From IMG/VR virus record IMGVR_UViG_2695420732_000010, positions 1 to 6,976 of that record: 6,976 bases of DNA, one strand, 5' to 3'. Position 1 is the stretch's first letter, and each line of letters begins with the position of its first letter. The translations under genes and the position numbers were made by a program. This DNA is from a virus. Taxonomy: Duplodnaviria > Heunggongvirae > Uroviricota > Caudoviricetes. Below, piece after piece: positions 3,456-4,344 of this stretch. The notes beneath the pieces are model-generated. The model ran no database searches and was not told the DNA's origin. It was given only the letters and a program-made list of their open reading frames with translations.

Positions 3456-3990
3456 ATGGCTAATAAATAAAAGATTGAGGTATCAGTACCTTACACTGCT
3501 TGCATTCTCGATCCTGGCATTGCTTGCACTTTACCTATTGTACAGAAACACACCTAAAGTAAGTGTTAACTTTTTTGATTTTTATCATAAAAACTTACGA
3601 GGCTATCTCTTCTCCGGTTTTATTTCCGTGGGCTCATTTTTATTGAGCCTGCATACCTTTGTCATAATAAATTTACGCGATAAGGTTTTTGCAACTCAGG
3701 AATATAAGGAAATTTATAGCATTGCCACTGGTATACCTATTGACAAAATCAATGATAGTGTACTTTATAAACCTTTAGACAATTTATCCTCATTTATTAA
3801 TACATCAATATTATGTTCTATCACAACAGCAATTGCACAATTCACTATTGGACTTTCAACTAATTTATATGCATGCTTATTTTGCGTATGGCTTGCAATA
3901 CTAACGGTATTTCTTTTATTACATTGCCTCATCATAATCAGACAAAATATTAAAATTTTATTAAAGCAACAGAGAAAAAAAGGGGGGTAA
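3442..3990 (+). CDS. Hypothetical integral membrane protein (182 aa, four predicted TM helices), cargo gene B
   Basis: Hydrophobic stretches at about residues 17-34, 55-78, 118-139 and 142-167, a roughly 40-residue polar loop between TM2 and TM3, basic C-terminal tail KQQRKKGG. Start ATG 3442 overlaps the upstream stop (ATGCCTTTATATGA), implying translational coupling. Confidence 0.7.
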   Translation: MPLYEWLINKRLRYQYLTLLAFSILALLALYLLYRNTPKVSVNFFDFYHKNLRGYLFSGFISVGSFLLSLHTFVIINLRDKVFATQEYKEIYSIATGIPIDKINDSVLYKPLDNLSSFINTSILCSITTAIAQFTIGLSTNLYACLFCVWLAILTVFLLLHCLIIIRQNIKILLKQQRKKGG

Positions 3991-3997
3991 TTCCCCC
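3975..3997 (-). terminator. Intrinsic terminator immediately after Q, shared by the convergent cargo operon
   Basis: Minus strand: GGGGG-aatta-CCCCCC then seven T (plus A run 3975-3981), starting 5 nt after the Q stop. On the plus strand the same hairpin is followed by the weaker TAATATT. The cargo gene B stop codon (3988-3990) lies in the hairpin loop. Confidence 0.55.
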
Positions 3998-4002
3998 TAA
4001 TA

Positions 4003-4344
4003 TTACAACATTGAAAGCACACCATCCAGAAAACCAAGAGCTGTTTGCAACTCTTTTCTTATTGTCCCATCAGAACACTTCTGCTTCTTTGCAATAGTTC
4101 TTAGTGAGATGCCGATAACAAAATGAGCAATAACCAACTCATACTCTTCGGGCTTATATTTCCGCAATCGCGCAACACAGCTGTCAATCATGATTCCTTC
4201 ATCATCATCGCATTGTTGGCGTGTTTTCTTTCCATGAGGTAGTAAACCTTTAAACCCTGCAGCAACAGGCTGCCAGTCCACACCACTGTTATCTGCTGCA
4301 GCCCATGCACCCCAGCGGTCCAATACTTCATACATATCACGCAT
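4003..4344 (-). CDS. Phage antitermination protein Q (Q82/QuuD-like family)
   Basis: Taking the ATG at 4344 gives MRDMYEVLDRWGAWAAADNSGVDWQPVAAGFKGL...QQCDDDEG...KCSDGTIRKEL, which matches E. coli DLP12 QuuD as I recall it (MRDIQMVLERWGAWAA..AAGFKGL..CCDDD..CSDG). GGAG Shine-Dalgarno 5 nt upstream. ORF track starts it at a TTG at 4359. Confidence 0.75.
   Translation of the reverse strand: MRDMYEVLDRWGAWAAADNSGVDWQPVAAGFKGLLPHGKKTRQQCDDDEGIMIDSCVARLRKYKPEEYELVIAHFVIGISLRTIAKKQKCSDGTIRKELQTALGFLDGVLSML

What the first reader, a model, noticed from the sequence alone, without database searches (positions are those of the whole stretch)
3975..4005. Cargo gene B stop codon is embedded in the loop of the terminator that follows Q
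The hairpin GGGGGG-taatt-CCCCC starts 5 nt after the Q stop and has seven U on the Q strand, so it should terminate Q transcription strongly. The last four codons of gene B (K-K-G-G) are encoded by the A run and the G arm, and its TAA is in the loop. The AT-rich island therefore ends exactly at a phage terminator, with its reading frame extended into phage sequence. That suggests acquisition by recombination at the terminator. It also leaves no room for a late promoter immediately after Q, implying the late promoter (if intact) lies on the far side of the island.
Basis: seen in the sequence. Interest (0 to 1): 0.5.

Follow-up and report, generated by a model that had tools for sequence, protein, structure and literature searches.

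The report
Terminator hairpin between Q and cargo
A real but ordinary transcription-terminator hairpin sits where the phage's Q gene and an opposite-strand, Rex-like accessory gene pair meet; it belongs to the accessory cassette, not to the phage backbone.

Summary
On the minus (Q) strand the sequence reads TAA(Q stop)-TATTA-GGGGG-AATTA-CCCCCC-U7. Gene B's last codons (K-K-G-G) lie in the A-run and G-arm, and its TAA is in the loop. It is the only site in the window that passes a strict terminator scan, and such a site appears in 2.3% of shuffles.

The hairpin is not a pre-existing phage terminator that served as a recombination point. The gene A/gene B/Q arrangement is an old, co-inherited module. 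It is found in 68 other loci from at least seven enterobacterial genera, usually with a hairpin at the same place but with different stem sequences. Q alleles that carry other cargo never share this hairpin, because their homology to the window ends inside Q's last codons.

Gene B's tail after ...LKQ is unconstrained, and its stop codon wanders from just upstream of the hairpin into its loop.

Published data on a terminator placed 5 bp after a stop codon suggest that ribosomes finishing Q would weaken this one.

Side finding: gene A has a RexA/RdgC fold, and the gap between Q and the leader is a cargo hotspot that was never empty in 60 loci.

The parts
3975..3981 (-). U7 tract of the terminator on the Q strand (A7 on the + strand). 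It also supplies the last base of gene B's Arg codon and its two Lys codons.
   Evidence: Sequence, terminator scan, fold.
3982..3997 (-). Terminator hairpin. G-arm 3982-3987, loop 3988-3992, C-arm 3993-3997 in + strand coordinates. On the Q strand it reads GGGGG-AAUUA-CCCCCC.
   Evidence: dG -11.4 kcal/mol. It is the only strict terminator in the window, and 2.3% of shuffles give one. The orthologous hairpins show compensatory stem changes.
3988..3990 (+). TAA stop codon of gene B, inside the hairpin loop.
   Evidence: ORF 3442-3990. RefSeq annotates the same CDS, WP_001131907.
3998..4002 (-). 5-nt spacer between Q's stop codon and the hairpin.
   Evidence: Sequence. In relatives, orthologous spacers are about 2-10 nt (my reading of the junction sequences printed).
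4003..4344 (-). Antiterminator Q gene (113 aa), with its stop codon at 4005..4003.
   Evidence: PF06530, E 2.1e-45; phrog_79; distant match to the Q21 structures 6jnx/6p18, E 3e-4; RefSeq WP_001205460.
3442..3990 (+). Gene B, a 182-aa membrane protein. It has three strong hydrophobic helices and one weaker one, and overlaps the end of gene A by 14 nt. It is the RexB-like partner by architecture only.
   Evidence: ORF; hydropathy; conserved family; no Pfam or PADLOC hit; hhalign to lambda RexB negative.
2529..3455 (+). Gene A, a 308-aa soluble protein with a RexA/RdgC-like fold.
2410..2479 (-). Inferred late promoter (pR') and Q-type-specific leader block, including the invariant GTGTTAAGAGTGGTTACTTCGCCACACAACTT.
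   Evidence: Conserved across phages with this Q type whatever their cargo. Found 1113-3778 nt downstream of Q in 60 of 80 loci. Phages with a different Q type share sequence only from 2409 onward. Promoter activity was not shown, and the consensus scan finds no strong sigma-70 match here.
2385..2409 (-). tR'-like intrinsic terminator that ends the short leader (GCCGC-UGA-GCGGU followed by a U tract).
   Evidence: Terminator scan; conserved in the alignment.

Best explanation
The element is an intrinsic (Rho-independent) terminator at the tail-to-tail junction between Q and a two-gene, opposite-strand accessory cassette. Q is the last gene of the phage's early rightward operon. The cassette is gene A (RexA-fold) plus gene B (membrane protein).

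The hairpin belongs to the cassette side of the junction. The exchangeable unit runs from Q's last few codons to the start of the conserved late-promoter leader.

Its polarity is that of the Q strand: a G/C hairpin followed by U7. RNA polymerases leaving Q without antitermination would stop there, instead of running antisense through genes A and B and on toward the late region. The same hairpin can also cap the 3' ends of both convergent mRNAs.

Gene B's stop codon sits in the loop only because B's tail after the conserved ...LKQ carries no protein constraint. In this allele the ORF reads on through the A-tract and G-arm until the first stop.

The late promoter with its own terminator lies beyond the cassette, at 2385-2479. 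Q acts there in trans.

Shown: the anatomy, its departure from chance, the recurrence and covariation of the hairpin in orthologous modules, its linkage to the cassette, and the position of the conserved leader block.

Inferred: that termination actually occurs in vivo, how efficient it is, and the promoter activity of the leader block. Efficiency is probably reduced by ribosomes finishing Q, because the hairpin starts only 5 nt after the stop codon.
For: - Canonical anatomy on the Q strand. It is the only strict terminator in the window, and 2.3% of shuffles give one.
- Sixty-eight other loci carry genes A and B convergent to the same Q type.
- Of 33 distinct B/Q junctions, 27 have a GC hairpin. 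Nineteen have at least 5 T in 8 on the Q strand, against 6 on the B strand.
- The 60 nt after Q's stop fold better than shuffles (mean z -2.37), against -0.33 for control segments inside gene B; Wilcoxon p 2.6e-9, not corrected for relatedness.
- Stems change in a compensatory way: GGGGGG/CCCCC(C), GGGGAG/CTCCCC, GGGAGGG/CCCTCCC, GGGAGG/CCTCCC.
- Other cargo classes next to Q alleles of 85-92% amino-acid identity carry different hairpins or none. Homology between Q alleles ends at or before Q's stop.
- The leader block is conserved on the far side of every cargo.
Against: - There are no transcript data.
- The hairpin starts 5 nt after Q's stop. Lambda tR2 in that position lost most of its activity in vivo (PMC4824070).
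- The stem is short (5-6 bp), so N-type or other processive antitermination, if this phage uses it, would read through.
- Six of 33 orthologous junctions have no hairpin. Several have the hairpin without a U tract, for example L043. The element is therefore not indispensable.
- The excess of A-runs upstream of the hairpin could partly come from Lys codons and the AT-rich composition of gene B.
- The junction statistics are not phylogenetically independent.
Confidence: 0.6

Rival explanations
1. The hairpin is mainly a 3'-end stability or processing barrier, not a working terminator. Ribosomes finishing Q (stop codon 5 nt upstream) and finishing B (stop codon in the loop) keep it unfolded while RNA polymerase passes. 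Transcription then ends further on, for example by Rho in the untranslated antisense RNA, and exonucleases trim both mRNAs back to the hairpin.
For: Lambda tR2 fell from about 90% to under 10% termination when placed 5 bp after a translated stop codon (PMC4824070). The hairpin folds on both strands, at -11.4 and -12.7 kcal/mol. Some orthologues keep the hairpin without a U tract (L043). The + strand has no U tract and no other terminator-like site before 4500.
Against: The U tract on the Q strand recurs in 19 of 33 junctions, against 6 on the B strand. A simple exonuclease barrier would not need that. Ribosome-polymerase coupling is stochastic, so some termination is still expected.
Confidence: 0.2
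2. The terminator is translation-gated and helps the phage silence its own cassette. Untranslated or stray transcripts leaving Q are terminated, which protects genes A and B in the lysogen. When Q is heavily translated after induction, ribosomes mask the hairpin. Early transcription then runs antisense across the Rex-like genes and lowers their expression during the phage's own lytic growth.
For: The spacing of about 2-10 nt between Q's stop and the hairpin is kept in the gene A/B orthologues (my reading of the junction sequences) and is 3-15 nt in several other cargo classes. The ribosome-occlusion data apply. There is a precedent: Q-driven late transcription lowered expression of the opposite-strand immune gene taiEcA in phi80 (PMC11364771).
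Against: This is purely inferential. The short spacing may only reflect genome compaction. Orthologues with overlapping stop codons and no hairpin exist (L012, L071). It is not known whether this phage uses N-type antitermination, which would make the gating irrelevant.
Confidence: 0.1
3. One reading: a terminator that already belonged to the phage downstream of Q served as the recombination point at which a foreign AT-rich island was recently inserted, fusing gene B's frame to phage sequence.
For: The AT-rich composition of 2480-4000. The ORF does extend into the hairpin. Cargo is indeed exchanged at this site among related phages.
Against: No Q allele without genes A and B carries this hairpin. 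Homology breakpoints lie inside Q's last codons (4003-4040) and at 2442-2479, not in the hairpin. The gene A/B/Q linkage persists down to 40% (A) and 54% (B) identity in other genera. Relatives with the same hairpin have B's stop codon upstream of it, so the extension is explained by a shift of the stop codon, not by a fusion. No empty site was found in 60 loci.
Confidence: 0.05
4. The palindrome arose by chance and has no function.
For: The 40-61 nt fold z-scores for this allele alone are modest, at -1.8, because G and C runs survive dinucleotide shuffling.
Against: The strict scan finds such a site in 2.3% of window shuffles and 0 of 1000 island shuffles. The element sits exactly at the junction, and hairpins recur there with compensatory changes.
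Confidence: 0.03

Closest known systems
Intrinsic terminators in tail-to-tail (convergent) gene junctions, including bidirectional terminators (TransTermHP survey, PMC1852404; E. coli inverted-repeat map, PMC6060812)
   Same: A GC hairpin plus U tract placed in the few bases between two converging stop codons. [quoted passage not shown] Inverted repeats are enriched right after stop codons, and most of them are terminators.
   Different: A textbook bidirectional terminator has an A-tract on one side and a T-tract on the other. This one has the tract on one side only, so by sequence it is unidirectional (Q strand). The converging gene's stop codon lies inside the loop.
Lambda tR2 placed 5 bp after a translated stop codon (Li et al. 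2016, PMC4824070)
   Same: The same geometry: the hairpin begins 5 nt after the stop codon of a translated gene.
   Different: That was an engineered reporter. Here the geometry is natural and is kept in orthologues. The consequence (ribosome repression) is inferred, not measured.
Lambda-type late control module: pR', short leader (6S RNA), tR', acted on by Q
   Same: The window has a short conserved leader ending in a hairpin plus T-run (2385-2479, minus strand). It co-varies with Q type, as expected of a Q-specific promoter and pause region.
   Different: That module is not the hairpin under study. In lambda (my own knowledge of the lambda map) pR' lies within about 100 bp of Q. Here the leader block begins about 1.5 kb past Q's stop, and in 60 related loci the distance from Q's stop to the leader is 1.1-3.8 kb of opposite-strand cargo.
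Prophage morons and accessory cassettes, and opposite-strand immune genes embedded in phage operons (phi80 Tai 'noncontiguous operon', PMC11364771)
   Same: An AT-rich, opposite-strand, self-contained gene pair in a variable slot of a lambdoid genome. Other occupants of the same slot include Kiwa.
   Different: The slot is upstream of the late promoter rather than inside the late operon. The cassette's own promoter was not identified. The terminator is oriented against incoming phage transcription rather than for the cassette's own transcript.
Lambda RexA/RexB exclusion system
   Same: A soluble protein of about 300 aa with the RexA/RdgC fold, followed by an overlapping gene for a small multi-pass membrane protein, carried by a temperate lambdoid phage. 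Its structural neighbours (RdgC, IML3, CHL4) are those reported for RexA itself (PMC11077077).
   Different: There is no detectable sequence similarity to RexA or RexB and no PADLOC or Pfam hit. The pair is located between Q and the late promoter, not next to the repressor. The exclusion phenotype is untested.

Membership tests
Intrinsic (Rho-independent) terminator | GC-rich stem of at least 5 bp with a short loop | tested here: met
   5-6 G:C pairs, loop of 5 (or 3), dG -11.4 kcal/mol.
Intrinsic (Rho-independent) terminator | U-rich tract immediately 3' of the stem on the transcribed strand | tested here: met
   U7 directly after the stem on the Q (minus) strand. On the + strand the tail is UAAUAUUA, which does not qualify.
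Intrinsic (Rho-independent) terminator | Placed at the end of a transcription unit, and conserved as a structure in relatives | tested here: met
   Lies 5 nt after Q's stop. 27 of 33 distinct orthologous junctions have a hairpin, with compensatory stem changes.
Intrinsic (Rho-independent) terminator | RNA 3' ends map to the U tract, with measurable termination | not testable with these tools
   No Term-seq or RNA-seq is available here. Published reporter data predict a reduced efficiency at 5 nt from a translated stop codon.
Bidirectional terminator of convergent genes | Located between two converging genes | tested here: met
   12 nt separate the two stop codons (3990 and 4003).
Bidirectional terminator of convergent genes | A-tract 5' and T-tract 3' of the hairpin, so that both strands have a U tract | tested here: not met
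   Only the A7 side is present. Among the orthologues, 4 of 33 junctions have tracts on both sides.
Q-responsive late terminator (tR') of the phage backbone | Lies downstream of the Q-specific late promoter and leader, and is conserved with the Q type regardless of cargo | tested here: not met
   The hairpin at 3982-3997 is absent from all Q alleles that carry other cargo. The element that fits this definition is at 2385-2409.
Moron / accessory cassette | Composition and orientation distinct from the surrounding phage genes, with variable presence among related phages | tested here: met
   GC 0.24-0.37 against about 0.5 in the flanks, on the opposite strand. About two dozen alternative cargo classes occupy the same slot.
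Moron / accessory cassette | Own promoter, active in the lysogen | tested here: inconclusive
   No convincing sigma-70 match upstream of gene A. A perfect TATAAT on the + strand at 2445-2450 lacks a -35 element. No expression data.
RexAB-type exclusion system | RexA-fold soluble component | tested here: met
   [not shown]
RexAB-type exclusion system | Sequence homology to lambda RexA and RexB | tested here: not met
   hhalign probability under 1% for both. No PADLOC hit at E up to 1.
RexAB-type exclusion system | Small multi-pass membrane partner encoded directly downstream | tested here: met
   Gene B overlaps gene A by 14 nt. It has three strong hydrophobic helices and one weaker one.
RexAB-type exclusion system | Excludes superinfecting phages | not testable with these tools
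   Requires plaque assays.

The most novel reading that the evidence does not exclude
In this Q family, the interval between Q and its late promoter is an obligatory slot for exchangeable anti-phage cassettes. Each cassette brings a hairpin that abuts Q's stop codon. Because the hairpin sits within the footprint of the ribosome terminating on Q, it works as a translation-gated terminator: it shields the cassette from stray antisense transcription in the lysogen, but lets early transcription overrun and silence the cassette once Q is being made. That would be a built-in way for the phage to switch off its own defence (here a previously unrecognised RexA-fold/membrane-protein pair) during lytic growth.
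Probability: 0.12. Interest if true: 0.6.

Novelty: new member of a known kind. Interest (0 to 1): 0.33.

Why it matters
For the finding itself, little changes. A terminator between converging genes, overlapped by a gene end, is normal bacterial and phage architecture.

The useful outcome is a corrected picture of the locus.
- The exchangeable unit in these lambdoid phages runs from Q's last codons to the late-promoter leader.
- That interval held cargo in all 60 loci where it could be measured (Kiwa, a Rex-like pair, and about 20 other classes).
- Each cargo class has its own junction sequence after Q's stop; about half carry a hairpin there, each different.

This defines clean boundaries for mining defence cassettes in prophages. 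It also flags an unannotated RexA-fold family (phrog_2802), present in about 4% of complete E. coli genomes (217-219 of 5426) and in the viable phage mEp460. Finally, it gives a natural test case for ribosome occlusion of a terminator placed 5 nt after a stop codon.

Tried and rejected
1. Empty site. I looked for a prophage with this Q allele and no island, and found none. All 218 genomes with a Q 3' end of at least 99% identity also have gene B. In 60 IMG/VR loci with Q of 85-100% identity, the distance from Q to the leader is never below 1113 nt.

2. Kiwa. A neighbouring phage has KwaA/KwaB in the same slot, but genes A and B show no similarity to them.

3. Sequence-level identification of genes A and B. 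Pfam, PADLOC and NCBIfam gave nothing, and PHROGs gave only an unknown-function family. hhalign to lambda RexA and RexB was negative. Only fold comparison was informative.

4. Formal column-wise covariation counts. MAFFT could not keep the short stems in register. I relied instead on folding each sequence on its own and on the nucleotide alignment of close relatives.

5. Rfam. Only the two tRNAs matched; nothing matched the hairpin or the leader.

6. sRNA-17, reported in an mEp460-like prophage of E. coli RS218 (PMC7719688). Its sequence is not in this window, and the RS218 record is not in the collection.

7. Literature search by protein accession found nothing.

9. Whether the phage uses N-type antitermination could not be settled from the mEp460 annotation.
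Full report
**What the window is.** The window is a lambdoid prophage of E. coli. It is 99.9% identical over 1-6571 to the O121 strain RM8352. The phage's early and late direction is the minus strand. Reading along that strand, the order is:
- an IS3-family transposase fragment, then a truncated KilA-N gene;
- a 171-aa ORF;
- a DUF968 gene (4362-5351);
- the antiterminator Q (4003-4344; PF06530, E 2e-45);
- an AT-rich stretch (about 2480-4000, GC 0.24-0.37) holding two + strand genes, A (2529-3455, 308 aa) and B (3442-3990, 182 aa);
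- a small ORF, a DNA methyltransferase, and two tRNA genes.

The same Q-to-methylase segment, island included (window 912-5350), is 96% identical in the viable phage mEp460_4F5; the Q-gene A/B-leader stretch itself is 100% identical. There the holin, lysin and spanin genes follow the methylase.

**The observation.**
- On the Q strand the sequence reads TAA (Q stop, 4005..4003), TATTA, GGGGG, AATTA, CCCCCC, T7.
- Gene B's last codons AAA AAA GGG GGG occupy the A-run and the G-arm, and its TAA (3988-3990) is in the loop.
- The RNA folds as a single hairpin of -11.4 kcal/mol on the Q strand and -12.7 on the B strand. Only the Q strand has a U tract.
- A strict scan (at least 5 consecutive G:C pairs, loop 3-8, at least 6 T in the next 8) finds this site and no other in the window. 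Dinucleotide shuffles of the window produce any such site in 2.3% of trials, and shuffles of the island produce none in 1000.

**Is it 'the phage terminator that follows Q'?** No.
- Among 5426 complete E. coli genomes, 218 have this Q 3' end at 99% identity or more, and all of them also have gene B. Every other Q allele is at most 89% identical, and its alignment stops at window 4009 or further inside Q.
- I fetched 80 IMG/VR loci with the closest Q proteins (85-100% identity). A conserved block, GTGTTAAGAGTGGTTACTTCGCCACACA, lies downstream of Q in 60 of them, at 1113-3778 nt. No site is empty.
- The interval holds about two dozen different cargo classes, nearly all on the opposite strand. 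Annotated examples include Kiwa (KwaA/KwaB), a metallophosphoesterase and several hypothetical proteins.
- About half of these classes have a hairpin 3-15 nt after Q's stop, and each hairpin is different: AAGGCGG/CCGCCTT, AAAGCCAC/GTGGCTTT, ATGGCCGC/GCGGCCAT, AGAGGCC/GGCCTCT and others.
- Homology between the window's Q and the 14 other-cargo alleles I sampled ends at window 4003-4040 and never reaches the hairpin.

The hairpin therefore travels with the cargo. The boundary of the exchangeable unit is in Q's last few codons, which also vary with the cargo.

**Is the island a recent acquisition?** No.
- Gene A belongs to a small family restricted to Enterobacterales (35 clusters).
- In six genomes of other genera (an unclassified Enterobacteriaceae isolate, Pantoea, Xenorhabdus, Enterobacter, Citrobacter, Yersinia) and in 65 viral contigs, gene A is followed by gene B. 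In 68 of the usable loci it is then followed by a convergent Q of this type, 48 nt or less away. Protein identities run down to 40% for A, 54% for B and 62% for Q.
- One locus (L078) has genes A and B without an adjacent Q.
- This is an old, co-inherited module. Cargo exchange in the slot is best explained by homologous recombination in the conserved flanks (the body of Q and the leader block), which is the usual lambdoid mosaicism.

**The hairpin in the orthologous modules.**
- Among 33 distinct B/Q junction sequences, 27 have a hairpin of at least 5 bp with at least 3 G:C pairs. Nineteen have at least 5 T in 8 after it on the Q strand, 6 on the B strand and 4 on both. Six have none.
- The 60 nt after Q's stop fold better than shuffles (mean z -2.37, with 18 of 36 below -2). 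Control segments inside gene B do not (mean z -0.33, 2 of 36). The Wilcoxon p is 2.6e-9, but the sequences are related, so this is not a true probability.
- In close relatives the hairpin is clearly orthologous and changes in a compensatory way: GGGGGG/CCCCC in the window, GGGGGG/CCCCCC, GGGGAG/CTCCCC, GGGAGGG/CCCTCCC, GGGAGG/CCTCCC. Each folds into one hairpin starting 2-8 nt after Q's stop.

The structure is thus maintained and its polarity favours the Q strand. It is dispensable in some lineages, and in some it lacks a U tract.

**Why gene B's stop codon is in the loop.** All B proteins share a conserved end...I(R/K)xxLKQ. What follows is variable.
- In three relatives with 82-83% identical B, the ORF stops at a TAG directly after LKQ, 8-9 nt before the hairpin (in L039 the A/T-extended stem reaches the stop). 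That TAG aligns with the window's CAG, and the in-frame 'translation' beyond it reads NKGG, KLYGG or SKMGG, like the window's QRKKGG.
- In another relative the TAA abuts the stem.
- In the window, L052 and L076 the stop codon is at the loop position; in L076 the hairpin itself has largely decayed.

The cause is a wandering stop codon in an unconstrained tail, not a recombination joint. An unrelated 340-aa cargo (L005) has independently arrived at the same layout, with its TAA in the loop of GCCCGA-gtaa-TCGGGC and a T-rich tail on the Q strand.

**Where the late promoter is.**
- Window 2385-2479 (minus strand) is a block conserved at 93-98% in phages with this Q type, whatever their cargo.
- It ends in a hairpin plus T-run (GCCGC-TGA-GCGGT, then T7).
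- Phages with a different, 250-aa Q type share sequence with the window only from 2409 onward. That is the terminator and what follows it, not the leader.

This is the pattern expected of a Q-specific late promoter and pause region followed by tR', giving a leader of roughly 55-60 nt. I could not identify a convincing sigma-70 -35 element in the window's version. One relative (L002) has TTTACA, 16 nt, then TATGCT at the aligned position. Promoter activity is inferred, not shown.

**How strong the terminator is likely to be.** By sequence it is canonical. Its position argues for caution.
- Li et al. (PMC4824070) moved lambda tR2 from 28 to 5 bp after a translated stop codon. Termination in vivo fell from about 90% to under 10%, and removing translation restored it.
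- The window's hairpin starts 5 nt after Q's stop, and the orthologues' about 2-10 nt after it (my reading of the junction sequences). Polymerases followed closely by a ribosome translating Q should often read through, while uncoupled polymerases should stop.
- On the B strand the ribosome terminating in the loop would cover the whole hairpin, and there is no U tract. Termination of the gene A/B transcript here is therefore unlikely. The hairpin may still protect that mRNA's 3' end after trimming.
- A 5-6 bp stem would not resist processive antitermination if the phage's early operon uses it. I could not establish whether it does.

**The cargo.**
- Genes A and B have no Pfam, PADLOC or NCBIfam match. 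Gene A is phrog_2802, of unknown function.
- Gene B overlaps gene A's end by 14 nt. It encodes a small protein with three strong hydrophobic helices and one weaker one, which resembles RexB in size, topology and gene order.
- Profile comparisons with lambda RexA and RexB are negative.

The pair therefore looks like a Rex-type exclusion system by architecture and fold. It is not a sequence-level member of the family, and its function is untested.

**Verdict.** The element is best read as a cassette-borne intrinsic terminator, with Q-strand polarity, at a convergent junction. That is an ordinary kind of element. The claim of a recombination origin is not supported. The claims about the ORF extension and the late promoter on the far side are supported. 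The more interesting results are contextual: the slot between Q and its late promoter is always filled, each cargo class has its own junction sequence after Q (about half with a hairpin), and there is an unannotated RexA-fold/membrane-protein pair.

Noticed in passing
[not shown]
   Followed up: partly
window 2480-4002; loci L002-L008 and L083-L164: The interval between Q's stop and the conserved late leader is a cargo hotspot. There are about two dozen cargo classes (Kiwa, a metallophosphoesterase, many hypothetical proteins), nearly all on the opposite strand. The interval spans 1113-3778 nt and was never empty in 60 loci.
   Followed up: yes
window 2385-2479 (-): A conserved Q-type-specific block ends in a hairpin plus T7. 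It is presumably pR', a leader of about 55-60 nt, and tR'. Phages with a 250-aa Q type share sequence with the window only from 2409 onward. No Rfam family matches it.
   Followed up: partly
window 2445-2450 (+): A perfect TATAAT on the + strand points toward gene A and overlaps the minus-strand TATTAT of the presumed late promoter. It lacks a recognisable -35 element. The cassette promoter and the late promoter may be back-to-back and overlapping.
   Followed up: no
L034, L035, L037 (equivalent to window 3975-3987): Homopolymer length variants (A6 instead of A7; G5 instead of G6) occur in otherwise identical viral contigs. They shift gene B's C-terminus: ...KKGGNSP in two, and a 217-aa read-through into antisense Q in one. 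These could be sequencing errors or slippage in the terminator tracts.
   Followed up: partly
L005 3085-3118: An unrelated 340-aa cargo in the same slot also has its TAA in the loop of a hairpin (GCCCGA-gtaa-TCGGGC), with a T-rich tail on the Q strand. The 'stop codon in the loop' layout has therefore arisen more than once.
   Followed up: partly
window 6572-6976: The window diverges from the RM8352 prophage at 6572. An IS3-family transposase fragment (ORF 6614-6961, minus strand) interrupts the KilA-N gene, which is intact (269 aa) in RM8352.
   Followed up: partly
window 579-811 (-): Two phage-borne tRNA genes lie downstream of the methylase. One is Arg(UCU). The other has a CAU anticodon: ARAGORN calls it Met and RefSeq calls it Ile. 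The layout resembles the tRNA cluster of Stx phages (my own knowledge), but no toxin genes are annotated in the 4 kb beyond the tRNAs in RM8352, where TerB-family, DUF3927 and esterase genes follow.
   Followed up: no
L078 3001-4441: This is the one gene A/B locus without an adjacent Q. Small ORFs and a DnaB-like gene follow instead, so the cassette can occasionally sit elsewhere.
   Followed up: no
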